Virus record (IMG/VR): IMGVR_UViG_3300006052_000009
Location: 8,895-72,894 of that record
DNA: 64,000 bases
DNA from: a virus
Direction: 5' to 3' (one strand)
The notes beneath the pieces were generated by a model. It saw nothing but the letters and a program-made list of their open reading frames with translations. It ran no database searches and was not told the DNA's origin. The position numbers were made by a program, and so were the translations under genes. Shown here piece after piece: positions 16,278 through 50,145 of the stretch; position 1 is the stretch's first letter; every line of letters begins with the position of its first letter.

Positions 16278-17501
16278 ATGGCAGAAGAAGTAGCGGAAGT
16301 AAAGGAGATGGAGAAAGTATACGATATCTCCCAAGGCAAATATGTAGAGAAAGAAAAGGAGCCTGTCAAAATAAAGGAAAAGCCATCCAACCCTATTCCG
16401 GATTACGATGAAGAGGGCAAGGAAGTAAAGCCTGTCAAAGAATCCAAAGCAAAAAAAGAACCAGAAGAAGAGGAGGAAGTTGAAGAAGTAGAGGCGAAAG
16501 AGCCTGACTTTAACTCCTACCTTAAAGAAAAATATTCCATCGATGATGAGGATCAACTTCAAAAGATTCTCGATTCAAACCAAAAATTTGAGGCGCAGAT
16601 CGAGGAACTTAAGAAGGCATCAAAGGATCCTGTATACAAATCAGACAAGCAGAAAAAATTGATCGAATGGCTTGATCAGTCTGGTTACGATCTCGATAAA
16701 ATAGGTGACGGACTCGAGTCTGCCGCCACGCTCATGAACCTCAATGTCGAGAAACTAGAGGACCGCAAGGCACTCGAGGAGGCATTCATCATCGACAATA
16801 CCGACATCACCAGAGAAGAGGCGAAGAAGTTATTCGCTAGGGATTACAAGAAATATAACCTCAACGAGGAGGATTTCGCTGACGAGGCTGAGTTCAAAGA
16901 AGCTCAGGAACTGGCCGACATCCAACGTAAGAAGGATGTAGCGAAGGCAAAAAAAGTTCTTTTGGCCAACCAAGAAAAACTCAAAGCCACCGAGCCAGAG
17001 AAGAAAAAAGAAGAGGCACCGAAAGAAGTTACTGCACCGAAGGAGGCTGTGGAGTTCTATTCAAAGCAAATCAACGACATTTTTACCCAGCCTGACGGAA
17101 AGAAATTTGATCGGTTTATCTTCGAGGATGACAACGATCCCAACATCAAGATCACAGTAAAAATCCCCGAAGACAAGTTGAAGTTCTTGAAGGAAATGTC
17201 TATTGACTACCTCAAAAACACGACCTTGTATGATCAGAATAAAAAAATTCCTAATTTTGATCCGCAGAAACATATCAAGCAAGTCTTCGATGCGCTGTAT
17301 GGCGATTGGAAAGATGAGCAGATGTTCAAGCAAATAACCACACTTGCCAAATCACTTAGAGCCGAGCAGTTAGCTGGCTTCAAGCCAACGAAAGAAAGCA
17401 AGAGTGGAGGAAAGGGAGATGGTATTCCATCATACAGCGATCAGTTTAAGGAACTGGCACGTAAAGCGAAAATAGATAGAGAGAGAAGCGGAGTACGCTA
17501 A
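16278..17501 (+). CDS. Putative capsid scaffolding protein
   Basis: Acidic, disordered N-terminus and helical body. Lies between portal and capsid genes. Confidence 0.6.
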   Translation: MAEEVAEVKEMEKVYDISQGKYVEKEKEPVKIKEKPSNPIPDYDEEGKEVKPVKESKAKKEPEEEEEVEEVEAKEPDFNSYLKEKYSIDDEDQLQKILDSNQKFEAQIEELKKASKDPVYKSDKQKKLIEWLDQSGYDLDKIGDGLESAATLMNLNVEKLEDRKALEEAFIIDNTDITREEAKKLFARDYKKYNLNEEDFADEAEFKEAQELADIQRKKDVAKAKKVLLANQEKLKATEPEKKKEEAPKEVTAPKEAVEFYSKQINDIFTQPDGKKFDRFIFEDDNDPNIKITVKIPEDKLKFLKEMSIDYLKNTTLYDQNKKIPNFDPQKHIKQVFDALYGDWKDEQMFKQITTLAKSLRAEQLAGFKPTKESKSGGKGDGIPSYSDQFKELARKAKIDRERSGVR

Positions 17502-17547
17502 TTTTTTAAGTCAGGGAGAATTTTTTATCAAAAAAAAATAATCCCCA

Positions 17548-19029
17548 ATGGCAACGCCAATAACAACAGTAAATACCTATCGGGATTTCTCGTTTGCTTC
17601 TTCGGAGCAATACCCAGTTATCTCCAACATTGAGTTCCTTTTGGAACCACAGATCGTAAAAGAACTTTTCAACATCAACCCACTCCAGACCGACATCGGT
17701 GACTTCATGAAAATGGGGTTAATGGAAAAAGTGGAAGGTGAAGAAATCATCCACCGTGAAATGCGTCAGATTTTGTCTGCGCCATTTGTAAACACGGACA
17801 CCACGCAGACCAACGTGTACGGAACTGCATCGGTAGGTAACGGTGACCCCGCTGCCTTCTCAGGTTTGCAGTACATTCAACTTTCAGCCGCATCTCACTC
17901 CCCAGGTACCGGTGTTAACTCGCTTGACTTCTCATATCCTCGTCAGGGGATGGTGATCGAATTCAACGGTCAGCAGTTCTGGAGAGTACAAGGTAAGCGC
18001 GACTCACAAGGTGGACTGTATGCAGGCGCACACCGCTTGTATATCACCCAATTGATTGGAACCTCGCTTCCTTTATCGAGCATCATCAACCTGAACGGTT
18101 CTACCTACGGTGGTAACCAGATCACGGTACCTGCTCCAGCATTTGAAGAAGCTACCTACGGTATGCAACAAGGGTTGATTCCTACCTTCACCAACATCAG
18201 GTCTTACCTGACTACTTTCGGTGAAGTGTACACGACCACTGACAAGCAGTTGACCAACAGGTCATATCCTATCGTCAACCCTGCAACGGGCGAGACTATC
18301 AACTTCTGGTATGTTCTCGGAAGCCGTACAACTGAAGAGTTGTTCATGCTTCAAATGGCAATGGGCTTGTTCGTGATGCCATCTGCCGATGCAAACGCTG
18401 TGGCTTACGATCCAGTATCCGGAACAAACAAGTCGCTGACCACCTCTGGTGGTTACATCCCTACACTTCAAGCCAATGCGCCTCTGAAGCAGTACGATGA
18501 TCAAGTGACGCTGACCTTGTTCAAGGATTTGTATCGCTTGAGAAACCGTTTGAACCAATCAGGCGACACCCTGATGTGGCATGGTCCTGAATTCGCGTTC
18601 AGAGTTTCTGACTTGATCACTCAGTTAGGAGACAATGGTTCGATCATCTATGATCGCCCAGCAGTCGACCTTGAGATCAGCACCATCGCTCTGCCTGGCG
18701 CGAAGTTCCACTTGAAAGGTCTTCGTATCCTTGACAATCCTCAGTTGACCAACATCCCTGGCCGTCCTTACCCATGGTACTTCATCGCGAAGCCTATGGA
18801 CAAGAAGGAAGATGCCAAGACTGGTATTCCGATGGATTGCTTTACCATCATGTATAAGCAACAGATGGGTGGTGGCGCAAGGGGCTACTACAAGGTATGG
18901 CAGACTGGTGCCTATGCACCCGTTCCGACCTCTACTCAACGTGTGTGCCAGACCAACTACGCTTCCGAAGAAGGAATCCGTGTTGTGGCTGCATCCAAGC
19001 ACATCTTGGGACAAGGTTCTCAGTTCTAA
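17548..19029 (+). CDS. Major capsid protein
   Basis: 493 aa, in the expected position, with highly biased (high-expression) codons and a strong terminator after it. Confidence 0.8.
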   Translation: MATPITTVNTYRDFSFASSEQYPVISNIEFLLEPQIVKELFNINPLQTDIGDFMKMGLMEKVEGEEIIHREMRQILSAPFVNTDTTQTNVYGTASVGNGDPAAFSGLQYIQLSAASHSPGTGVNSLDFSYPRQGMVIEFNGQQFWRVQGKRDSQGGLYAGAHRLYITQLIGTSLPLSSIINLNGSTYGGNQITVPAPAFEEATYGMQQGLIPTFTNIRSYLTTFGEVYTTTDKQLTNRSYPIVNPATGETINFWYVLGSRTTEELFMLQMAMGLFVMPSADANAVAYDPVSGTNKSLTTSGGYIPTLQANAPLKQYDDQVTLTLFKDLYRLRNRLNQSGDTLMWHGPEFAFRVSDLITQLGDNGSIIYDRPAVDLEISTIALPGAKFHLKGLRILDNPQLTNIPGRPYPWYFIAKPMDKKEDAKTGIPMDCFTIMYKQQMGGGARGYYKVWQTGAYAPVPTSTQRVCQTNYASEEGIRVVAASKHILGQGSQF

Positions 19030-40801: not shown

Positions 40802-42691
40802 ATGGCCTACCAAGAATTTGCTAATCCTAATGCAGCCGAGGCACCAGATATTGGTGACATGCCTCGGACGCTACAGGCATTGCAATATGTCAATCAGCAA
40901 AAGGAGAGAGCACTACAAGCTAGAAGAACCGCTGCTCAGAATTTAAAGGAATTTACTATAAACGGTAAGGATACGCCTAGTGTTGAGAGATTAACAAAAG
41001 AAGCTCAAGACGTTAAAAATGAAACGGTGAATGATATTATGAATTATGGTTCACCAAGGCCAGAGACTATAAAAAAACGAGATAAGATCGAACTGGCTCA
41101 TAATATAATGAAGACCGTTGATGAACAGACAAAATCTACTCTTGAAGAAATAGGAAAGTGGGATAAGTATATGAATAAGGGTAAGGCTATTGGTGAACTT
41201 GGTGAAGTAGCTACTTTTAATCCACCGGAGAACATGGATTTAATGGAGCATCAGCATGAGAGGGCTAATAGACTTTTAGATTTTCAGAACAAAGTAAATT
41301 CCGCTGTTAAGGGTGGTGATCACACTCCTGAATACTATAATAATGATTTGTTTACTGCTGACTGGGTAACTAAACAACACGAAAAAAATAAATCAAAATG
41401 GGGAGTAGGAACCGATGAAGAGGGTAAAAATTCTGGATCAACTGAAGCTCCACTAGTTGATTCAAAAGGTAATCCAAATGTTGAACCGCACATCAATGCT
41501 TACTTGGAATCTGATCCAAGAGTATTGCCAACAATACAACATGAGGCTATGCAACAAATAGAAAAAAATGTTGAAAATAATATTGCCTCTGATAAGAATT
41601 GGTTGGACAAGGCGGGGAGAGCACTGTATGGGAAACCTTTTCAAAGTAAAGAAGAAGCTATAAATGATTTATTCAATCACCCAAATAATAACATTGTACC
41701 GGAAACAGGTGAACTACAGCCTAGCGCGACAGATGAAAATGGTAGGATATTGAAATTTAATGACAGAGTTAGAAATATTGCAAAAGAAAAACTTGAAGAG
41801 TATAATAATAAATCAAGTGAATACCTGCATGACGTGAGTAAAAACAATCATTCATTTGGTGCTAATAAAAATTCTTCAGTTAACGTACAGTACGATAACG
41901 GAAGCACTGCACCTGGCCTTGGGCTTATTATCAATCATAAAGACAAGCCGATTCCATATGTTAACTTTCAGCCTAATAAATACTACAACCTATCAACTGG
42001 ACAGAATGTTAAAAATGTAAATCATCTTGATTTTAACGCTAACAATTATGTGCTTGTTTTGCGTAAAAAAAATGGTGATTTAGTTCCATTCAAAGCGCAA
42101 GATCACGATCAGTTATTAGAGGAAATAAAGAACACTCCAGCCAAAGATTTAATAGGTAGTGACTTAACGTGGGCTATGAAAGGACAGGCTATAAATAAAG
42201 CCAATGAGTCATCAGCCCTCGATGCAATGTCGGCAGAGATGGCAAAAAATCCATCTCCTGCATTAGCCGCTGCCATCCAAGCATTAAAAGATTTTAAAAG
42301 TGGTGCCTCTGGAATTTCCCCCGAGCCACTTGCTGTAATGCAGAAATTAAGTGGGATGCCAAATATGATTACTGATATGATGATCGAGGTACCCAGAAAT
42401 GGAAGTGCTGAAGCTAATTTGAAGGGATTCACTGGCGTTAATTTACACGATCCAAAAATTCTGAATAGGCCAGAGTTTAAAGATGTAATTGATTCATTCA
42501 ATCAAAAAAAGAAAGAATCCAAAATACCAGAAGAGGCAGTAAAATCATATTGGGAGTCTCCAAAGGGGAAAAGTGATTTATCAAAAATAAAAAATACAGT
42601 AACACAAGATGAATGGAGCAATAAATGGAAGTCATTGAAAAGCGGAGAAAAAATGATCGGATTGGACGGTAAAGAATATACTAAAAAATGA
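40802..42691 (+). CDS. Internal virion (cargo/ejection) protein
   Basis: 629 aa, helical, between the pilot and giant protein genes. Confidence 0.6.
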   Translation: MAYQEFANPNAAEAPDIGDMPRTLQALQYVNQQKERALQARRTAAQNLKEFTINGKDTPSVERLTKEAQDVKNETVNDIMNYGSPRPETIKKRDKIELAHNIMKTVDEQTKSTLEEIGKWDKYMNKGKAIGELGEVATFNPPENMDLMEHQHERANRLLDFQNKVNSAVKGGDHTPEYYNNDLFTADWVTKQHEKNKSKWGVGTDEEGKNSGSTEAPLVDSKGNPNVEPHINAYLESDPRVLPTIQHEAMQQIEKNVENNIASDKNWLDKAGRALYGKPFQSKEEAINDLFNHPNNNIVPETGELQPSATDENGRILKFNDRVRNIAKEKLEEYNNKSSEYLHDVSKNNHSFGANKNSSVNVQYDNGSTAPGLGLIINHKDKPIPYVNFQPNKYYNLSTGQNVKNVNHLDFNANNYVLVLRKKNGDLVPFKAQDHDQLLEEIKNTPAKDLIGSDLTWAMKGQAINKANESSALDAMSAEMAKNPSPALAAAIQALKDFKSGASGISPEPLAVMQKLSGMPNMITDMMIEVPRNGSAEANLKGFTGVNLHDPKILNRPEFKDVIDSFNQKKKESKIPEEAVKSYWESPKGKSDLSKIKNTVTQDEWSNKWKSLKSGEKMIGLDGKEYTKK

Positions 42692-45600
42692 AAACAGGGA
42701 AAGACAATCCTAAGAACTGGACTCCACCAGATGATGCCGTAGAGGTAATGGAGAAGCCATCATGGACTCCTCCTGAAGATGCTATTCCTGTAAAAAAAAA
42801 AGACCATACCGTAAGCGAAACCGCATCTCCAAGTACATCAGCACAACCTGGCTCGGGCGAGTCATCCGTGGCCTTCGAGCAGCCAAAAAAGCCTTCTGGA
42901 AAAGCTACAGAACCCAACATCCTTAATGCGCCTTCCGTCAAGGCAATGCAAGAGGTTGACCTAAGCAAGCCTGAAGAAGAAACAAATATATGGAAGGAAC
43001 TCGGTAAGTTTTTAATCGGAGATACTCAGAATAAACTTTTCCAACAGAAACAAACCAAGGAGCAGAAAGTCAAATCAGAGTTCTTCAAAGAGGCTGGTGA
43101 AGAAGAGGATAAATCTTTATCACATCAAATAGCGCAGGGATTAAAGCAAGTCGGTCCATCTCTTGACAAGGCTGCTGTTGAAAATATTTCAATGCTACCG
43201 AAGGCTTTAGCCATGGCACAGCATGGTGTTGAACTCGGCATAGAAAAGATCACAGGTGCCAAAGCACAACCAATAGAGAATTTATTGCCGATGCAGGCAG
43301 GTAAATGGATTGATGATAAGGCAAGAGAGTTAGGCATCGGTGTGATTGATCCTCGCCACGCAGGATTTTTGAATAGTGAAATTCCTCACATGTTCGGTAA
43401 TATGTTACTCCTTTACATGACAGGCGGTGCATCCGCCGCAGGTAAGGCAGGACAACTCGCAGAGGGACTTGCTAACGAAGGATTGAAGGGAATGACCAAG
43501 GAGGCCATCAAGCATGTAGGGCCGACTGCCGCAGTTGCTGGTGCTCAGATGGGAGTAGCTGAATTTGAGAAAGCAAAAGAAATGGGTGCCTCTGATGATG
43601 CTGCCTTCAGAACTTTCCTTGGCACACTTCCTGCAAGTGGCTTTTATGCTGTACCTCTTGCAAGACAAATAGAGAGAATCAATAATCTTACTGGTGGTGG
43701 TATTGTAAATGCACTTAAGACAAAAGGGATCAACTCAATCGAGATGGCTACTCAGTCGGCAGTGTATAACACCATGTCTAATGCCATTGCTAAAAATCAA
43801 TACGATCCTAACCGAGGATACTTGGAGGGATTGAAAGAGTCTGTAGGCACTGGTGCATTCGTTGGATTGATAATGCCTGGAGTGGTTAAGGTGGCGAAGG
43901 AAAATCCTAAGTACAGAGATGAAATATTGAAGGAGGCAAGAACCGTCCTTGAGAAGCCAGATGTGGTTAAATCACCAGAGCAGACGATCAGTGATGCTCA
44001 GGATGAAATAAAATCTTCTGGTGATCTTGGGAATATAAATCAGAAAGCCGAAGAAATAGTCGATAACCTTAAACAACAAAGCAATGCCGTACAAGAGCCT
44101 AAAGCAGGAGAGGTACTTCAACGCGAACAAGAGCAAGTTGGAGGCACAGGGAGTGAACGTGGACGAGTGGAACAAAGCGTCCAAGGGAAAGAAACTTCCG
44201 GAGAGAGCAATGTCCAAGAGCCACGCACGGAAGAAACTGGCAATGGTGGCGTTGGCAAACAAGAGGAAACATTAAACCAACAACAAAATGAAAATGAAAC
44301 TGGGAACGGGGAAACGCTTCAAAGCAGGCGTGAACAAAATCGAGAAGAAGGAGGGACTGAGCAAGGAGTCAGCCTCAGCGATAATGGCCAGCGCAGGGAG
44401 GAAGAAGTACGGGGCGAAGAAAATGGCGGCCTGGGCGCACAAAAAGTAAATGAGTCAACAATTGGATTTGCACCATATCGTTCGAAAAATGTTAAAACGA
44501 TTAAGGAAGACAGCGAGATTCGTCAGTCGGAAGACTACAAAGCTCATCAAGAGAATGTACAAAAGATTGCAGACGGACTGGGAATAAAGATCGTTGACAA
44601 GGCCGATACGTGGGGTGGATATGTGGACAGCGAGACAGGTGTTCCTGTGCAGGAGGTGTCCAACATGATCCACGTAGAGGGACCGCCAGAGAAGATCAAA
44701 TTGATGGCTGCCTTGCTTGGTAAGACATCCCCAGAGATGCAGGACTCCGTGCTCATCGGTGGCTATAAAAATGAGGGTAACGGGGTAGAATATCGATTTA
44801 ATTTGGGTGATTTTAAGCAGGGTGAAAAAGCCGTAAAACTGCTAAAGGAGAATGGATTGGAGTATTTTACCCTAGATACCAAGACGGGGCAATTGACAAT
44901 TTTAGATCCTGAGAACACGAATACAAAAAATATTGTTACATTTACTGAATCTCTCAAGAAAAATGGAATCGCACATGAACTCAGAGCCAGCAAAATCGAA
45001 GCCGAATTCATCGGATCACAAGATTATGATCGAATTATTGGAGAAGGAGCACGGACTCAAGTGGGAGCAGAGAACGGGTTCGATATTAATGCCCATATCA
45101 AAGGGGCTGAAGGAAAGTATGAAGGGATCAAAAACTCCAAAGCCCTAGAGAAGTTCGGTGTCCAACCAAAGGACATTCCTGCCACAAGCAGTTTACTCAC
45201 AAGACTATTCGAAGGATTAAAGCAGTCGGGAATTACGACAGCTAAGAATGTGTCCGATTGGGTAAGTATTGGTAAGGCAGCTAAACAAAGGGTATCCGCT
45301 TTATTCCAACCAACCATTTACGGACTAAGTAAAATTACGAAAGAACCTGCTTTTGATAAATCGAACTTTGAAAAAGATATTGCCAGTGGTCGCGTATCGT
45401 TTAAAGAACCAAGTGAATCATTGGAGGATAAATATTTTGCAATCACCCATCCAGATGATTTTTATACAGGCAGTACCAAAATAGGTAATAAAAAAATATC
45501 AGAGGGTGGTGGTGGTGTATTTTTCACGCTGGCCAGAGGTGGAAAAGGTGATGTGTGGGCATCTGTTTCTGAAAATGGAGCCAAGAATTTCGCTAAACAA

Positions 45601-48600
45601 TTGAATGAATCATTAGAAAAAAATAATGGCGAAGGTATAGTGATTCTATCTAAACGTGATGATACAAAACACTCAACATCGCTACAAGCTAAAGTTGGAT
45701 TTGTTAAAATGCTTTTGCATTACGGAAAGGATAAAAATGGTTATGACGGATTGATTAAAGCGATCAAGGATATCTATAGCATAGGTAATACAAAAGACGC
45801 TCAAAAAGTTATAGATCTTTTTGATAATTACCTCCATGGTGGTCGAATGGCAGACGGACAAACCATGAACGAGGCAAAGACATCATATCAAAATTTCAGA
45901 GCATCATTAATAAAAAATGCTAATCCATTAATAACTCAGATGATGAGAGATATGGGTTATGAAGGTCCAGAATTTTTTGATGCAACCCAACTAAAAAAGG
46001 GTATCTATAAAGCAACTGGGAAAGGGATTGATACCATGTTTACTGACATTGGTCAGGAAGATTTTTTAAAAGGTGTTGCGCCTGGTTCAGCCTACGCTGC
46101 GATAAAAGTTAACAGTAAAGTCATCGTTGAACCTAACAAAGGACATCCCTCTTATCCATTTTTAATAAAAACTGCGGATGGCTCACCAGTGAAACTAGAT
46201 GTTTTCAAAAGAACATTTATGACTCACGGTAAAAATCAAGCTATCAATGGACGATCTAGTGAAAAGGGAAGTTTTGGAGTAGTAACAACAACAAAGCCAG
46301 ATTACACATTCAATAAAAATGCTGATTTAAATAACCCATCATCAAAGTCATTAATTGATCCGCTTAGTAAATATGGAGCAATTGATAGAACGAATGCCTT
46401 AAAGCAAAACGCTAACGCTCAATTCCGTGTCAAGAACGGTCAGAAGATCATTGAGTCACTCAAAGACTTCAGCCGTGTAAAGAACAAGGCCAAGGCTGTC
46501 GTTGCCTTCACCCACGAAGTAATGCATGGCACAGTTACATCTATCCTCGATGCCGCATCAGAGGGAAATGAGGTTGGACTTAAGCATGCTAATACCATCG
46601 TTGAAGAGTTCAATAAAGCAACTGGTAAGAATATCACCCGCGATCAGTTGCTACAAGGTAATGAACAGTTCAAGCAAGGTAAGACCACTGACTCGTATCG
46701 TGCTGTGCAGGAGTTCATCGCCAGATCGTGGGAACTTTATAACCGCAAGGGACCGAAAGGGTTCAGCGAGTCATTCCAGAAAGTCCTCGATGCGATATCT
46801 ACTTCGTTCCGTCAGGTGTACAAAGCCTGGAAAGGAAGCGAGATCGATGTGCCACTCTCGAAAGAACTCGAGGGTATGTTCAATGAATTATTAGGAAAAG
46901 AAAATGAAAAAACTGAAACCCAACGAACTGGAGAAACTACAGGAGGAGAGCCAGTTTCAGAAACTGCCACACAAGAAGCACTTCCTCCACAAGAAAACAA
47001 AGAAGTCCAAGGAACAGAAGGACTGAAGCAAGAGGCACCTGAGCAAGGACAAAAGAGCCTTTTAAATCGTGCCTATTTTGGCGCAACTGAAGAAACGATA
47101 AAATCGGAAATTGAAAAACAAGGACTACAATATCCGATTGAGTCACATGAAGAAGCTCGAAGAAAGGCTGATGAATTTATTAATTCAGTTGGAATTGACA
47201 ACGCTCTTAATGCGGTTAGAAATAATGAAGTAGAGGATGGTGCCGCTGCTTACATCTGGGCAAAAGCAATTGATTCAATGGATAATAATCCTGTTGAACA
47301 GGCTAAACTATTGGGTGAGTTCGACACTAAAATGCGTTCAAGTGGTAGGCTTATTTCGGCACTTGGTGATGTATACAAAAGTTCTGATTTCAATTACAAT
47401 GTAGAAAGACAAATAAGTCAATTTAAAACATTGAACAATGGACAGATACCTATTGAAGTTGAAAGAAAGTTCCGTGAACTTGATCAGAAACTGAAGGAGG
47501 CTAATGATAAAATCAAACAACTTGAGGCTAACCAAAACTCCTTCAAAAGAATAGCCGAGCACGAAAAGGAGGAACGTAAAAAATTAATAACTGAAAAAAA
47601 GAAAAAGGAGATAGTCAACTTTTTTGATGCTCTGAAAATCGATACCAAAAACAACATTGCAACCGCATCAATATTGCCAATAGGGGTTCTTCCTCATGTA
47701 TGGAATGCGACAGTTGATGTTATTAAACAGGCTGTATTAACAGGTGCCGATGTAGCCAATGCTATTCAGGCGGGTATTGATTACATTAAGGCAAATCAAA
47801 AAGAGCCATTTGATGAAAAGAAATTCAGGGAAGAGTTTACGCCTGAAATTCAAAAGATCATTCCTAGGAAAGAGCCTGTTAAAATGCCTTCCGTTGAACA
47901 AGGAAAAATTAAAATTCCAGACAGTTTAATAAAAGAACTTGTAGCCAATGGGGCATCTACAATTGAGGAACTTACAGATCAGGTTCATTCTCTAATTAAA
48001 GAAACCAATCCGGAGATCACCATTAGGGAGGTGAGGGATGCCATTACAAAGTACGGACGTACTGCTTCAATGAGCCAGGAAGCTATCGATGTAGAGATAC
48101 GTAAGATGAAGAGAATTGGCCGACAGTTGTCAATATTGGAAGACATTCAAAAGAAACAACGTCCACTACGTTCTGGACTTCAGCGGGATAAATTATCTGA
48201 TCATGAAAGAAGACTTCGTAAAGAAATAAACGAGGGCTTAAAAGAATTGCCATTAGATAAAGAGGAGGAGGATAGACAATGGAGGACGGCACTTGATGCT
48301 GTTAAATCACGGCTTCAAAATCAGATATCGGATCTCGAGCATCAAATCGAAACTGGCAAGAAGACACCAAAGAAAAAAGGTATTGAATATGATGCCGAAG
48401 CGATAGCGTTACATAAAAGAAGGGACGAATTAAAAAGCATCATTGAAGAAATTGAAGGGAAACAAGGTGTCCCCGATGAGACAAGATTAAAGAATGCAAT
48501 CAAGGCTGCCGAAAATTCTCATTATGAATACGAAAGAAGAATCAGAGAAAAAGATTTCTATAAAAGAGAAGGGAAGCCTCTTCCTGAATCAGAAGAATTA

Positions 48601-50145
48601 AAGATAGTAAAGGAACAAAGAGATCAGGCCAAAAAGATTTACAATGAATTGAAGGAAAGCGAGGGTGTAGCAGAGGCGCAAAGAAGAGAATCGAGAAAGA
48701 AAGCAATTCGTAAATCGATCTCCGAATACGAAAGAAGAATTAAAGAAAAAGACTTTGTAAAAAAAGAGCCAAAGAAAACTTCTGTAGACGAAGAATTGAA
48801 ACGACTGAAGATTCAAAAGAATCAGATCAAAGAACAATTTGATATTGAGCAAGAGAAAAACAGACTTGCTAATAGAACGAAGTCTGAAAAGGCTTGGGAT
48901 GCAACTTTGGATATTTCTAATCTTCCAAAGTCTTTGTTAGCATCAATTGATATGTCGGCCCCACTTAGGCAAGGAATAATATTAAGTGCTGGTAATCCTG
49001 TAATTGGAGGTAAATCTTTTGTTGAAATGGTTAGACAAGCATTTTCAAAAGAAAGAGCATCCCAATGGCTTCATGAATTAAGGATGACTGATGAGTATCA
49101 ATTAATGAAGGAATCGAAATTATTCCTATCTGAGCCAAGCGTTTCATTGTCTGCCAGAGAAGAATTTTTCATGTCTAATTTAGCTGAGAAAATTCCTGTT
49201 TTAGGAAAATTAGTCGCTGGTAGTAACAGGGCTTATACTGGGTTCTTGAATAAGTTGAGAGCCGATGTTTTTAATTATGGTGTAAATAATTTAAAAGATC
49301 AGGGAATCACAATTGAAAATAATCCAGAGGTATATAAAGCATGGGCATCATTTATCAATAATGCTAGTGGTAGGGGTGAGTTAGGAGCACTAGAAAACTC
49401 TGCAACAGTTTTAAATACTGTATTTTTTGCACCACGATATGTAGCATCAAGGATTAATCTTTTGAATCCTGTAACCTATGCAAAGATGCCACAACCTGTA
49501 AGGATAATGGCAATGAAAAATATGCTTTCATTTCTTGGATTTTATGCCATTACAGCGATGATGATGTCGGCGGCAGGAGCCGAGGAAGAAAAAGATCCTC
49601 GTAGCACTGATTTTGGTAAGTTCAAATTTGGCGATACACGTTATGACATACTCGCTGGATTCCAACCAATCATTAGATTGATTGGTCAGTTAGCAACAGG
49701 TGAGGTTAAAAGAAAAGGTAAGATTCAATCTTTGACATCACATGAAAAGAATGGAAAAATTGTACAGCCACAAGAAACAAGGGCTGACATTTTATTAAGA
49801 TTCGGAAGAAGTAAATTATCGCCAGCATTGGGAGCCGCTGCTGATCTATTGACGGGAAAAGATATGGTTGGACAGCCTGTTACTTGGGACTCAGAACTGC
49901 TTAAAACAGTTACTCCTCTGTACATTCAGGACATCCACTCAATTTATAAGAGCGAAGGAGCCACTGGAGTCTTAACATCGGCCATTCCTGCGTTCTTTGG
50001 TGTTGGAGTTCAGAATTATCCAGAGAAACCAGAAAAACAAAAGAAATCATTATCATTAAGACAACAGATAATGAAGCCATTTAAGGAGGCCATGCATCCA
50101 ATGGATAGTACCTTTAATAAACTGAAGAAAGACTTGAGAAAATAA
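42688..50145 (+). CDS. Giant internal virion or polyvalent protein (2485 aa) with a zincin HExxH domain
   Basis: Gly/Ala-rich membrane-like region, low-complexity linkers, HEVMH at 46513-46527, long coiled coils and a C-terminal DPRSTDFGK region. Confidence 0.8.
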   Translation: MKTGKDNPKNWTPPDDAVEVMEKPSWTPPEDAIPVKKKDHTVSETASPSTSAQPGSGESSVAFEQPKKPSGKATEPNILNAPSVKAMQEVDLSKPEEETNIWKELGKFLIGDTQNKLFQQKQTKEQKVKSEFFKEAGEEEDKSLSHQIAQGLKQVGPSLDKAAVENISMLPKALAMAQHGVELGIEKITGAKAQPIENLLPMQAGKWIDDKARELGIGVIDPRHAGFLNSEIPHMFGNMLLLYMTGGASAAGKAGQLAEGLANEGLKGMTKEAIKHVGPTAAVAGAQMGVAEFEKAKEMGASDDAAFRTFLGTLPASGFYAVPLARQIERINNLTGGGIVNALKTKGINSIEMATQSAVYNTMSNAIAKNQYDPNRGYLEGLKESVGTGAFVGLIMPGVVKVAKENPKYRDEILKEARTVLEKPDVVKSPEQTISDAQDEIKSSGDLGNINQKAEEIVDNLKQQSNAVQEPKAGEVLQREQEQVGGTGSERGRVEQSVQGKETSGESNVQEPRTEETGNGGVGKQEETLNQQQNENETGNGETLQSRREQNREEGGTEQGVSLSDNGQRREEEVRGEENGGLGAQKVNESTIGFAPYRSKNVKTIKEDSEIRQSEDYKAHQENVQKIADGLGIKIVDKADTWGGYVDSETGVPVQEVSNMIHVEGPPEKIKLMAALLGKTSPEMQDSVLIGGYKNEGNGVEYRFNLGDFKQGEKAVKLLKENGLEYFTLDTKTGQLTILDPENTNTKNIVTFTESLKKNGIAHELRASKIEAEFIGSQDYDRIIGEGARTQVGAENGFDINAHIKGAEGKYEGIKNSKALEKFGVQPKDIPATSSLLTRLFEGLKQSGITTAKNVSDWVSIGKAAKQRVSALFQPTIYGLSKITKEPAFDKSNFEKDIASGRVSFKEPSESLEDKYFAITHPDDFYTGSTKIGNKKISEGGGGVFFTLARGGKGDVWASVSENGAKNFAKQLNESLEKNNGEGIVILSKRDDTKHSTSLQAKVGFVKMLLHYGKDKNGYDGLIKAIKDIYSIGNTKDAQKVIDLFDNYLHGGRMADGQTMNEAKTSYQNFRASLIKNANPLITQMMRDMGYEGPEFFDATQLKKGIYKATGKGIDTMFTDIGQEDFLKGVAPGSAYAAIKVNSKVIVEPNKGHPSYPFLIKTADGSPVKLDVFKRTFMTHGKNQAINGRSSEKGSFGVVTTTKPDYTFNKNADLNNPSSKSLIDPLSKYGAIDRTNALKQNANAQFRVKNGQKIIESLKDFSRVKNKAKAVVAFTHEVMHGTVTSILDAASEGNEVGLKHANTIVEEFNKATGKNITRDQLLQGNEQFKQGKTTDSYRAVQEFIARSWELYNRKGPKGFSESFQKVLDAISTSFRQVYKAWKGSEIDVPLSKELEGMFNELLGKENEKTETQRTGETTGGEPVSETATQEALPPQENKEVQGTEGLKQEAPEQGQKSLLNRAYFGATEETIKSEIEKQGLQYPIESHEEARRKADEFINSVGIDNALNAVRNNEVEDGAAAYIWAKAIDSMDNNPVEQAKLLGEFDTKMRSSGRLISALGDVYKSSDFNYNVERQISQFKTLNNGQIPIEVERKFRELDQKLKEANDKIKQLEANQNSFKRIAEHEKEERKKLITEKKKKEIVNFFDALKIDTKNNIATASILPIGVLPHVWNATVDVIKQAVLTGADVANAIQAGIDYIKANQKEPFDEKKFREEFTPEIQKIIPRKEPVKMPSVEQGKIKIPDSLIKELVANGASTIEELTDQVHSLIKETNPEITIREVRDAITKYGRTASMSQEAIDVEIRKMKRIGRQLSILEDIQKKQRPLRSGLQRDKLSDHERRLRKEINEGLKELPLDKEEEDRQWRTALDAVKSRLQNQISDLEHQIETGKKTPKKKGIEYDAEAIALHKRRDELKSIIEEIEGKQGVPDETRLKNAIKAAENSHYEYERRIREKDFYKREGKPLPESEELKIVKEQRDQAKKIYNELKESEGVAEAQRRESRKKAIRKSISEYERRIKEKDFVKKEPKKTSVDEELKRLKIQKNQIKEQFDIEQEKNRLANRTKSEKAWDATLDISNLPKSLLASIDMSAPLRQGIILSAGNPVIGGKSFVEMVRQAFSKERASQWLHELRMTDEYQLMKESKLFLSEPSVSLSAREEFFMSNLAEKIPVLGKLVAGSNRAYTGFLNKLRADVFNYGVNNLKDQGITIENNPEVYKAWASFINNASGRGELGALENSATVLNTVFFAPRYVASRINLLNPVTYAKMPQPVRIMAMKNMLSFLGFYAITAMMMSAAGAEEEKDPRSTDFGKFKFGDTRYDILAGFQPIIRLIGQLATGEVKRKGKIQSLTSHEKNGKIVQPQETRADILLRFGRSKLSPALGAAADLLTGKDMVGQPVTWDSELLKTVTPLYIQDIHSIYKSEGATGVLTSAIPAFFGVGVQNYPEKPEKQKKSLSLRQQIMKPFKEAMHPMDSTFNKLKKDLRK
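44084..44275 (+). CDS. Nested small basic protein in the +1 frame of the giant gene (63 aa)
   Basis: MPYKSLKQERYFNANKSKLEAQGVNVDEWNKASKGKKLPER.... A-rich leader TTAAACAACAAAGCA like those of stand-alone genes. Confidence 0.65.
   Translation: MPYKSLKQERYFNANKSKLEAQGVNVDEWNKASKGKKLPERAMSKSHARKKLAMVALANKRKH
44288..44449 (+). CDS. Second nested small basic protein in the +1 frame (53 aa)
   Basis: MKMKLGTGKRFKAGVNKIEKKEGLSKESASAIMASAGRKKYGAKKMAAWAHKK*. Leader ACCAACAACAAA lies 12 nt after the previous stop. Confidence 0.65.
   Translation: MKMKLGTGKRFKAGVNKIEKKEGLSKESASAIMASAGRKKYGAKKMAAWAHKK
46904..47026 (+). CDS. Possible third nested basic peptide in the +1 frame (40 aa)
   Basis: MKKLKPNELEKLQEESQFQKLPHKKHFLHKKTKKSKEQKD*. 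Coincides exactly with a low-complexity linker of the host protein. Confidence 0.4.
   Translation: MKKLKPNELEKLQEESQFQKLPHKKHFLHKKTKKSKEQKD

What the first reader, a model, noticed from the sequence alone, without database searches (positions are those of the whole stretch)
42688..42926. A10 slippery site near the start of the giant gene opening a start-less -1 frame encoding a basic amphipathic tail
Seen in sequence: after a tandem WTPP(D/E)DA repeat comes GTA AAA AAA AAA GAC (ten A, 42792-42801). The -1 frame is closed by TGA at 42774, has no ATG, and reads RPYRKRNRISKYISTTWLGRVIRGLRAAKKAFWKSYRTQHP* to 42926. The 0 frame there is Ser/Pro low-complexity. Established: A-runs of 9 or more promote transcriptional slippage, A_AAA_AAA is a -1 slippery heptamer, and phage tail chaperones use G/GT frameshifts. 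Inference: a programmed slip yields a ~79-aa short isoform with a membrane- or DNA-binding helix and sets the stoichiometry of the giant protein.
Basis: partly seen in the sequence, partly recalled or inferred. Interest (0 to 1): 0.75.

Follow-up and report, generated by a model that had tools for sequence, protein, structure and literature searches.

The report
Conserved poly-A slip site, giant phage gene
A run of ten A's near the start of a phage's 2485-residue virion-protein gene looks like a deliberate slip site, kept in several dozen related phage sequences, that makes a short second protein from another reading frame.

Summary
A10 lies at 42792-42801, 104 nt into the 2485-codon gene 42688-50145. 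A start-less -1 frame runs from it for 41 codons to TAA at 42924-42926.

It is not chance:
- The run is the longest homopolymer in the 64 kb window.
- The -1 stretch is the longest of 256 in the gene.
- In 85 sources (1.52 Mb: window plus related phage loci), 10 of 10 A/T runs of 10 nt or more sit after the short N-terminal module of a giant gene.
- Elsewhere in 13 such genes, 0 of 23 KKK are spelled AAA AAA AAA; 11.5 were expected.
- In 26 loci (23 distinct tails) the -1 tail (..KIGFG..WFFGW..) varies at its own third codon positions, and none has a start codon.
- A roughly 90%-alike contig of the window's lineage keeps the -1 peptide while the 0 frame changes.

Best reading: a programmed slip, most likely +1 A by RNA polymerase, gives a 79-aa isoform. 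It is not universal: 74 of 80 distant homologues lack a run. No RNA or protein data were available, and the tail's function is untested.

In four cultured Cellulophaga phages the deposited A9 splits the gene in two. Earlier scan notes report homopolymer slip sites in other viruses, but none with this cassette.

The parts
42688..50145 (+). Giant gene, 0 frame, 2485 aa (P0001). It lies in the late/structural block after a crAss-muzzle-like gene. Its relatives are polyvalent-type giant phage proteins.
   Evidence: ORF list and translation. Homologues P0002-P0026, some with Kinase-PolyVal or ART-PolyVal domains. Muzzle C-terminal domain, portal and terminase hits in neighbouring genes.
42688..42791 (+). 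N-terminal module shared by both products (M1 to V35). It holds two tandem WTPP(D/E)DA motifs, at 42718-42738 and 42763-42783.
   Evidence: the motif occurs only here in the window. The same kind of tandem [WF]xPPxD module precedes the run in L003, L096 and L107.
42792..42801 (+). A10 slippery run (GTA AAA AAA AAA GAC), encoding KKK in the 0 frame.
   Evidence: Longest homopolymer in the window. Runs of A9-A11 sit at the equivalent place in the related loci.
42774..42776 (+). TGA that closes the -1 frame just upstream of the run, so the -1 ORF can be entered only at the run.
   Evidence: In 26 of 26 related cassettes the -1 frame opens between 57 nt upstream of the first A of the run and 2 nt into the run, and holds no ATG, GTG or TTG.
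42801..42926 (+). -1-frame tail ORF: 41 codons plus TAA, basic (+13) with two Trp. It is reached after a +1 A in the mRNA or a -1 ribosomal shift.
   Evidence: In the related contig of run X4 the peptide is conserved (WLGRVIRGLRAA becomes WLGRILRGAKAA, with 4 synonymous codon changes). Over the same bases the 0 frame takes 6 replacements. The stop lies one codon earlier.
42803..42814 (+). +1-frame continuation (TIP, then TAA at 42812-42814). Loss of one A would give a 41-aa product.
40802..42691 (+). Upstream 629-aa gene whose stop overlaps the giant gene's ATG (ATGA), which suggests translational coupling.
   Evidence: No family hit.

Best explanation
The A10 run is a selected, programmed slippage site.

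Most transcripts and ribosomes read straight through it and make the 2485-aa virion protein. In a fraction, RNA polymerase stutters on the run, which is as long as the RNA-DNA hybrid, and adds one A. Less likely, the ribosome shifts -1 on A_AAA_AAA. Translation then leaves the giant frame after residue 38 and adds a 41-residue basic, Trp-containing tail, giving a 79-aa protein. That protein shares the N-terminal WTPP(D/E)DA tandem module with the giant protein.

Shown by comparison:
- the run is kept at the nucleotide level;
- the -1 frame behind it is start-less and unusually open;
- in related phages it evolves as coding sequence.

Inferred:
- the slip is mainly transcriptional;
- the short isoform is functional, for example as a small partner or placeholder that uses the same N-terminal docking module and so tunes how much giant protein is made or packaged.
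For: 1. Nucleotide-level conservation.
- 6 of 6 loci of the 30%-identical P0007 clade have A10-A11 88-136 nt after the ATG. One of them (L007) encodes QKKN there instead of KKK.
- In 85 sources (1.52 Mb), 10 of 10 A/T runs of 10 nt or more lie after the N-terminal module of a giant gene.
- Elsewhere in 13 run-bearing genes, 0 of 23 KKK tripeptides are all-AAA, against 11.5 expected from codon usage.
- In the window's gene the other lysine runs are broken by AAG.

2. The -1 frame is open.
- In the window it is the longest of 256 -1 stretches.
- Over 8 lineages the combined Fisher p is 3.8e-5.

3. The -1 frame is coding. This rests on 26 cassettes with 23 distinct tails.
- The Gly codons of the IGFG motif are invariant at positions 1 and 2 and free at position 3 of the -1 frame (entropy 0, 0 and 1.7 bits).
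- pN/pS over 16 codons not fixed by the search pattern is 0.62 in the -1 frame, 1.17 in the 0 frame and 0.90 in the +1 frame.
- 0 of 26 -1 ORFs hold ATG, GTG or TTG.

4. The window's own lineage. A 349-nt contig of run X4 differs at 13 places within 42857-42878. The -1 peptide is kept, with 4 synonymous and 4 conservative changes. The 0 frame takes 6 replacements. The -1 stop moves by one codon.

5. Run and tail go together. L019 has the same N-module as L007 but no run, and its -1 frame is closed.

6. The run length is A9-A11, never merely 7, and no RNA structure flanks it (z -0.6 to +0.8). This fits polymerase slippage better than a stimulated ribosomal shift. The 9-10 bp hybrid is described in a passage of PMC5009743.

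7. A precedent: the A11 run of Citrobacter rodentium tssM1 is a proven transcriptional slip site whose two products are both needed (abstract of PMC4256274).
Against: - There are no RNA or protein data. No RNA run was listed and only contigs could be laid.
- The window's tail cannot be aligned to the well-sampled WFFGW tails (HMM score -3.1, E 0.43 for a single sequence).
- The window's tail is not itself Trp-enriched (2 of 41 residues; 0.05 against a 0.036 background).
- Evidence for selection in the window's own lineage rests on one low-depth contig (depth 2.6).
- The cassette is not universal.
  - 74 of 80 loci found through the shared C-terminal domain have no run at the start of a giant gene. 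One of them, L032, has an unexamined A9 270 nt into a 665-aa gene.
  - The two other accessible genes with a WTPP-type module lack it. L151 has A8 with only 8 open -1 codons, and L139 (GC 0.63) has none.
- Trp, Phe and Tyr in a -1 frame arise automatically from T-ending Ser, Thr and Gly codons. Composition alone is therefore weak evidence.
- The +1 frame behind the run is also somewhat open (Fisher p 0.0023).
- L013 and L085 share an N-module but not a tail.
Confidence: 0.72

Rival explanations
1. The entry into the -1 frame is real, but it is made by the ribosome: a -1 shift or sliding on A_AAA_AAA(A) lysine codons, not polymerase stuttering.
For: - In every cassette the run contains an in-phase A_AAA_AAA, A_AAA_AAG or A_AAA_AAC heptamer.
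- Ribosomes slide on iterated AAA codons in E. coli (PMC4363877; title and start of abstract seen in the listing).
Against: - Seven A would be enough for a ribosomal shift, yet the runs are A9-A11 in 33 of 33 cassette-bearing contigs.
- No stimulatory structure lies up- or downstream in the window.
- The block conserved in the related clade lies 55-75 nt downstream of the run and shows a coding pattern, not a pairing pattern.
Confidence: 0.15
2. The run is a DNA-level contingency (phase-variation) tract. Replication slippage switches the giant gene on and off in the phage population, and the -1 tail is incidental.
For: - Four cultured Cellulophaga phages (phi18:3, phi19:3, phi46:3, phi13:2) are deposited with A9. 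This puts the N-terminal module (gp122 in phi18:3) out of frame with the giant ORF (gp123).
- The X4 contig ends inside the run.
Against: - 22 of 22 metagenome-derived cassettes, and all 13 instances, are in frame.
- The four isolates are about 97% alike in this region, so they are not independent. They may carry a homopolymer miscall. I recall that they were sequenced by 454, but the paper is not held, so this is unverified.
- gp123 was nonetheless found in virions by MS/MS (annotation note).
- A pure on/off switch does not explain purifying selection on the tail.
Confidence: 0.06
3. Nothing is programmed. KKK is a protein-level linker or cleavage motif spelled with the preferred codon, and the -1 frame is open by chance in a low-complexity stretch. 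A variant: the run is only an attenuator that lowers output of a costly protein, and the tail is waste or a degradation tag.
For: - AAA is the preferred Lys codon, at 61% in this gene and up to 88% in relatives.
- The 0-frame KKK(D/E/S) motif is conserved in proteins P0002, P0007, P0008 and P0018.
- Low-complexity S/T/G/P coding opens other frames too (+1 frame p 0.0023).
- Tails of different lineages are not alignable.
Against: - 0 of 23 KKK elsewhere are all-AAA, against 11.5 expected.
- L007 keeps A10 with QKKN.
- The third-position pattern and the lowest pN/pS belong to the -1 frame.
- The X4 contig conserves the -1 peptide, not the 0-frame peptide.
- The attenuator-plus-degron variant is not excluded by any of my tests.
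Confidence: 0.07

Closest known systems
Thermus thermophilus dnaX (tau/gamma) by transcriptional slippage on an A9 run
   Same: A homopolymeric A-run inside a long ORF. The unslipped mRNA gives the long product. Slipped mRNAs run into nearby stops in the other frames and give a shorter product with the same N-terminus (passage of PMC5009743).
   Different: - Here the slip comes after only 38 of 2485 codons.
- The run is A10-A11.
- The -1 frame adds a 25-45-residue tail that is itself conserved, instead of a stop within a few codons.
- The gene is a phage virion protein.
- Slippage has not been measured.
Citrobacter rodentium tssM1 (type VI secretion), A11 transcriptional slip site
   Same: A poly-A tract of hybrid length in a gene of a phage-tail-like injection machine. 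It gives two length variants whose ratio matters (abstract of PMC4256274). The A9 form deposited for the Cellulophaga phages would work in the same way, because the long product would need the slip.
   Different: In the window the genomic frame encodes the long form, and the slip gives the short one.
Potyvirus P3N-PIPO and paramyxovirus P/V editing
   Same: Polymerase stuttering at a short homopolymer gives proteins with a common N-terminal module and alternative C-termini from an overlapping, start-less ORF. That ORF is under its own purifying selection (passages of PMC5009743).
   Different: Those are RNA viruses with a viral RNA-dependent polymerase and runs of 6-7 nt. Here a dsDNA phage is involved, with presumably the host or a phage DNA-dependent RNA polymerase and a run of 10 nt.
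Lambda G/GT tail-assembly-chaperone -1 frameshift
   Same: A phage late-gene recoding event thought to fix the ratio of two structural-module proteins that share an N-terminus (passage of PMC5009743).
   Different: G/GT is a ribosomal shift at a heptamer near the 3' end of G that extends the protein. Here the shift truncates a giant protein near its 5' end. The run is longer than a heptamer and no stimulatory structure was found.

Membership tests
Programmed transcriptional slippage site (dnaX of Thermus, tssM1, IS elements) | Homopolymeric A or T run of about the RNA-DNA hybrid length (9 nt or more) | tested here: met
   A10 at 42792-42801. Related cassettes have A9-A11.
Programmed transcriptional slippage site (dnaX of Thermus, tssM1, IS elements) | The run is conserved at the nucleotide level among homologues, beyond what the encoded amino acids require | tested here: met
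   - 6 of 6 loci of the P0007 clade have it, one of them with QKKN.
- 10 of 10 runs of 10 nt or more in 1.52 Mb lie at this site.
- 0 of 23 KKK elsewhere are all-AAA, against 11.5 expected.
- Not universal: 74 of 80 distant homologues lack it.
Programmed transcriptional slippage site (dnaX of Thermus, tssM1, IS elements) | The alternative frame behind the run is open, start-less and under selection | tested here: met
   - Related clade: third-position pattern, pN/pS 0.62 against 1.17, and 0 of 26 with a start codon.
- Window: longest -1 stretch of 256, and one related contig conserves the -1 peptide.
- The window-specific evidence is thin (n = 1).
Programmed transcriptional slippage site (dnaX of Thermus, tssM1, IS elements) | mRNA population heterogeneous in run length while the DNA is homogeneous | not testable with these tools
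   No RNA run was listed, and only contigs could be laid.
Programmed transcriptional slippage site (dnaX of Thermus, tssM1, IS elements) | Both protein products detected | not testable with these tools
   The only data are the GenBank note that phi18:3 gp123 (the giant ORF) was found by MS/MS in virions. No data exist on a short product.
-1 programmed ribosomal frameshift (E. coli dnaX, lambda G/GT type) | In-phase slippery heptamer X_XXY_YYZ | tested here: met
   A_AAA_AAA is in phase in the window. A_AAA_AAA, A_AAA_AAG or A_AAA_AAC is in phase in relatives.
-1 programmed ribosomal frameshift (E. coli dnaX, lambda G/GT type) | Stimulatory downstream hairpin or pseudoknot (or an upstream element) | tested here: not met
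   Folds of 42730-42791, 42802-42870, 42802-42930 and 42760-42860 give z-scores of -0.61 to +0.82 against shuffles.
DNA-level phase-variable (contingency) homopolymer tract | Run-length polymorphism among genomes that switches the gene out of frame | tested here: inconclusive
   A9, out of frame, in 4 closely related cultured phages. In frame in 22 of 22 metagenome cassettes and 13 of 13 other instances. A sequencing artefact is not excluded.
Polyvalent proteins of phages (Iyer et al. 2017, PMC5512222) | Giant multidomain protein encoded among virion genes, carrying effector or enzyme domains | tested here: inconclusive
   - Homologues carry Kinase-PolyVal, ART-PolyVal, ParB_N and 2'-5' RNA ligase domains.
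- The window's protein has no Pfam hit above threshold and no PHROG hit.
- Its position in the structural block fits.

The most novel reading that the evidence does not exclude
A portable recoding cassette has been shuffled in front of unrelated giant virion or ejected proteins of phages of Flavobacteriia and their relatives. The cassette is a short tandem-repeat docking module, then an A10-A11 polymerase-slip run, then a conserved start-less -1-frame Trp-rich or basic tail. The short transframe protein would be a distinct, so far unannotated phage protein. Through the shared N-terminal module it would compete or cooperate with the giant protein and set the giant protein's copy number in the capsid. 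In cultured Cellulophaga phages the giant protein itself may depend on the slip.
Probability: 0.3. Interest if true: 0.8.

Novelty: new member of a known kind. Interest (0 to 1): 0.66.

Why it matters
- It would add a conserved, testable recoding event to dsDNA phages. Apart from tail-chaperone frameshifts, few such events are documented there.
- It would reveal a small protein that gene callers cannot see.
- It would explain why the giant structural gene of four cultured Cellulophaga model phages is annotated as two genes (gp122 and gp123 in phi18:3).
- It offers a handle on how phages dose or package very large internal, polyvalent-type proteins.
- For annotation, homopolymer 'frameshifts' at this site should not be treated as pseudogenes or silently corrected.

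Tried and rejected
Close DNA relatives of the window
- None could be obtained.
- The search for related loci found nothing with the window's N-terminus, with P0002, or with the window+P0002 alignment A4 in viral, metagenome and genome contigs.
- A degenerate pattern for run plus window-type tail found nothing in metagenome, viral or genome contigs.
- blastn against the phage collection gave no match.
- P0002 (59% identical, with PLKKKDH) and P0018 are therefore known to me only as proteins.

Other blanks
- The tail as a protein query in the 5.8-billion-protein database (longer proteins only) gave no hit. This is weak evidence.
- tblastn of a WFFGW-type tail against cultured phages gave no match (the query is very short).
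- No RNA holder was listed. Only contigs could be laid, so run-length heterogeneity in reads could not be examined. Runs X2 and X3 gave no cover of the run itself.

Readings rejected
- I rejected homology between the window's tail and the WFFGW tails.
- I rejected homology between the window's giant protein and phi18:3 gp123 (E 0.7) and between their upstream genes. MS/MS support for gp123 therefore cannot be transferred to the window's protein.
- I rejected an RNA-structure reading of the conserved block, because variation falls on -1-frame third positions. I did not run a covariation test.

Literature
- Searches found no description of this site.
- PMC5512222 holds neither 'frameshift' nor 'homopolymer'.
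- The paper describing the Cellulophaga phages is not held.
- Supplements were not opened.

Not followed
- An A9 270 nt into a 665-aa gene in L032.
- The tails of the L011, L013 and L085 lineages among their own relatives.

Full report
WHAT IS THERE

The window is an uncultured-virus record (72.9 kb, estimated 68% complete). It has a late block holding terminase, portal, a gene with a crAss-type muzzle C-terminal domain, and large structural genes. The gene 42688-50145 encodes 2485 residues (P0001). Its ATG overlaps the stop of the upstream 629-aa gene as ATGA.

The N-terminus carries two WTPP(D/E)DA motifs. Then comes GTA AAA AAA AAA GAC, with ten A at 42792-42801. An S/T/P/G-rich stretch follows.

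The -1 frame is closed by TGA at 42774-42776. I saw no ATG, GTG or TTG in it. From the last A of the run it reads 41 codons to TAA at 42924-42926. One extra A in the mRNA, or a -1 ribosomal shift, gives a 79-aa product. Loss of one A gives a 41-aa product.

IS IT MORE THAN CHANCE IN THIS SEQUENCE?

- A10 is the longest of 34 A/T runs of 7 nt or more in the 64 kb. The next is an intergenic A9 at 17530.
- The gene uses AAA 158 times and AAG 101 times. All of its other lysine runs, KKKK and KKK included, are interrupted by AAG.
- The 49-codon stop-to-stop -1 stretch across the run is the longest of 256 in the gene (mean 8.7). Only 1.3% of positions have 41 or more open -1 codons.
- The tail has charge +13 and no acidic residue. 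Its best helical hydrophobic moment (0.70) is reached by 70 of 2000 shuffles, which is weak support for 'amphipathic'.
- No RNA structure stands out on either side of the run (z -0.61 to +0.82).

HOMOLOGUES

The protein database gave 25 relatives. Several are polyvalent-type giant phage proteins, with Kinase-PolyVal, ART-PolyVal and ParB_N domains. The nearest are P0002 (59% identity) and P0018.

For the 30%-identical P0007 clade, 6 of 6 loci that include the gene's start have A10 or A11 88-136 nt after the ATG. L007 is one of them, and there the residues are QKKN rather than KKK.

A search with the shared C-terminal domain returned 80 loci.
- Four have A9-A10 within 400 nt of the start of the matched gene (L011, L013, L018, L085).
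- Two have A10 in a large ORF just upstream (L016, L071; the L071 ORF is open at the locus end).
- L032 has an A9 that I did not follow.
- The rest have none. These are mostly smaller genes, other clades or higher GC.

In these 80 loci plus L002-L005 and the window (1.52 Mb), 10 of 10 A/T runs of 10 nt or more lie at this kind of site. Elsewhere in the 13 run-bearing genes, 0 of 23 KKK tripeptides are spelled with nine A, where codon usage predicts 11.5. Long A-runs are thus avoided in these genes except at this one place.

THE -1 FRAME IN RELATIVES

Behind the run the -1 frame stays open for 8-45 codons in 13 instances. Across 8 lineages this is longer than the genes' own background (Fisher p 3.8e-5). 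The +1 frame is also somewhat open (p 0.0023).

In the P0007 clade the tails share ..KIGFG(N/T)xxWFFGW.., followed by a stop 3-6 codons later. A pattern search for run plus WFFGW found 27 loci. Twenty-six are real cassettes, and six of those are the contigs already seen. There are 23 distinct tails.
- The runs are A10 in 20 loci, A11 in 2 and A9 in 4.
- The cassettes sit behind at least eight unrelated kinds of short N-terminal module.
- They sit in front of ORFs of 292 to more than 2600 residues.

The search fixed only the 15 nt of WFFGW. In the unfixed IGFG block, both Gly codons are invariant at positions 1 and 2 and vary freely at position 3 of the -1 frame (entropy 0, 0 and about 1.7 bits). 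Those third positions are second positions of the 0 frame, whose residues change accordingly.

Over 16 unfixed codons, pN/pS is 0.62 in the -1 frame, 1.17 in the 0 frame and 0.90 in the +1 frame. None of the 26 -1 ORFs holds ATG, GTG or TTG. All of them open between 57 nt upstream of the first A of the run and 2 nt into the run. In this clade the -1 frame is therefore a real coding sequence that can be entered only at the run.

L019 has the N-module of L007 but no run, and its -1 frame is closed.

THE WINDOW'S OWN LINEAGE

The window's tail is not alignable to the WFFGW tails and is not itself Trp-rich. Pooled over 8 lineages, the tails hold 20 Trp against 5.7 expected. Trp, Phe and Tyr in a -1 frame partly follow from T-ending Ser, Thr and Gly codons.

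The one piece of direct evidence is a 349-nt contig of run X4, about 90% alike at depth 2.6. It covers 42800-42913 and ends inside the run.
- It carries 11 substitutions and a compensating deletion/insertion pair within 42857-42878.
- Read in the -1 frame these give 4 synonymous changes (including two Arg CGN to AGA) and 4 conservative replacements (V to I, I to L, L to A, R to K).
- Read in the 0 frame they give 2 synonymous changes and 6 mostly radical replacements.
- The -1 stop lies one codon earlier (translation by hand).

The source contig (X1) shows A10 without variants, but contigs cannot show minor lengths.

Two other genes with a WTPP-type module lack the cassette. L151 has A8 and 8 open -1 codons, and L139 (GC 0.63) has no run.

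CULTURED PHAGES

Four cassettes belong to Cellulophaga phages phi18:3, phi19:3, phi46:3 and phi13:2 (Pachyviridae, Baltivirus). Their records have A9. The ATG-started N-module is therefore annotated as a 103-aa hypothetical protein (gp122 in phi18:3). The giant ORF is annotated from an internal ATG as gp123, 'structural protein', with an MS/MS note. One more A would fuse them, as in all 22 metagenome cassettes.

Either the homopolymer was undercalled or these phages need the slip to make the giant protein. I recall that the isolates were sequenced by 454, but the paper is not held, so I could not check. gp123 is not BLASTP-similar to the window's protein. The cassette therefore precedes non-homologous bodies.

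MECHANISM

The comparative data show a selected run and a selected, start-less -1 ORF behind it, so a slip at the run is the only route to that ORF. I favour polymerase stuttering for three reasons:
- The runs are of hybrid length (A9-A11) and never merely a heptamer.
- No stimulatory structure is present.
- There are proven precedents at A9-A11 (Thermus dnaX in PMC5009743, passages; C. rodentium tssM1 in PMC4256274, abstract).

The abstract of PMC6260861 says that E. coli RNA polymerase needs runs of at least 7 T, and more A than that. A ribosomal contribution is not excluded.

What the short protein does is inference. It keeps the N-terminal tandem module, which is plausibly a docking or packaging signal, and replaces 2447 residues with a basic tail. 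It could dose or partner the giant protein. Alternatively the tail could simply mark slipped products for removal.

COMPARISON WITH WHAT IS KNOWN, AND NOVELTY

The kind of mechanism is known: programmed slippage giving two products with a common N-terminus. The gene family, the position 38 codons into a giant phage gene, the modular cassette and the conserved tail are, as far as my searches reach, undescribed.

Earlier notes of this scan report homopolymer slip sites in giant viruses and in one lake phage, but none with this cassette. The same stretch was also noted in an overlapping window.

VERDICT

- Confidence is 0.72 for the window, and higher for the WFFGW clade.

Noticed in passing
L117 6053-6364 and 6376-12183 (KC821620.1, Cellulophaga phage phi18:3 gp122 and gp123); also L090, L102, L105, L115: In four cultured Baltivirus phages the deposited A9 run splits the N-terminal module (gp122, 'hypothetical') from the giant MS/MS-verified structural ORF (gp123, annotated from an internal ATG). 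A10 would fuse them. This is either a homopolymer miscall or a real dependence on slippage.
   Followed up: partly
N-termini of P0004, P0005, P0011, P0024, P0025 and of loci L013, L016, L035, L044, L049, L075, L085 and others: Giant polyvalent-type phage proteins very often begin with two to four tandem copies of a short motif of about 8-25 residues. The motif differs from lineage to lineage. This may be a general docking or packaging signal.
   Followed up: no
window 17530-17538: An A9 run, the second-longest homopolymer in the window. It lies between the ORF 16278-17501 and a virion structural gene starting at 17548. It is probably an A-rich leader.
   Followed up: no
L032 9392-9400: An A9 run 270 nt into a 665-aa gene that carries the shared C-terminal domain (residues MKKKG). 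An alternative frame of 32 codons spans it.
   Followed up: no
In my data the +1 frame of this gene has 7 stop-free stretches of 50 codons or more, the longest 123.
   Followed up: no
window 42800 (end of a contig of run X4): A related 349-nt contig from another study stops exactly inside the A-run. After 42913 it continues with unrelated sequence, so the relative's body downstream differs from the window's.
   Followed up: partly
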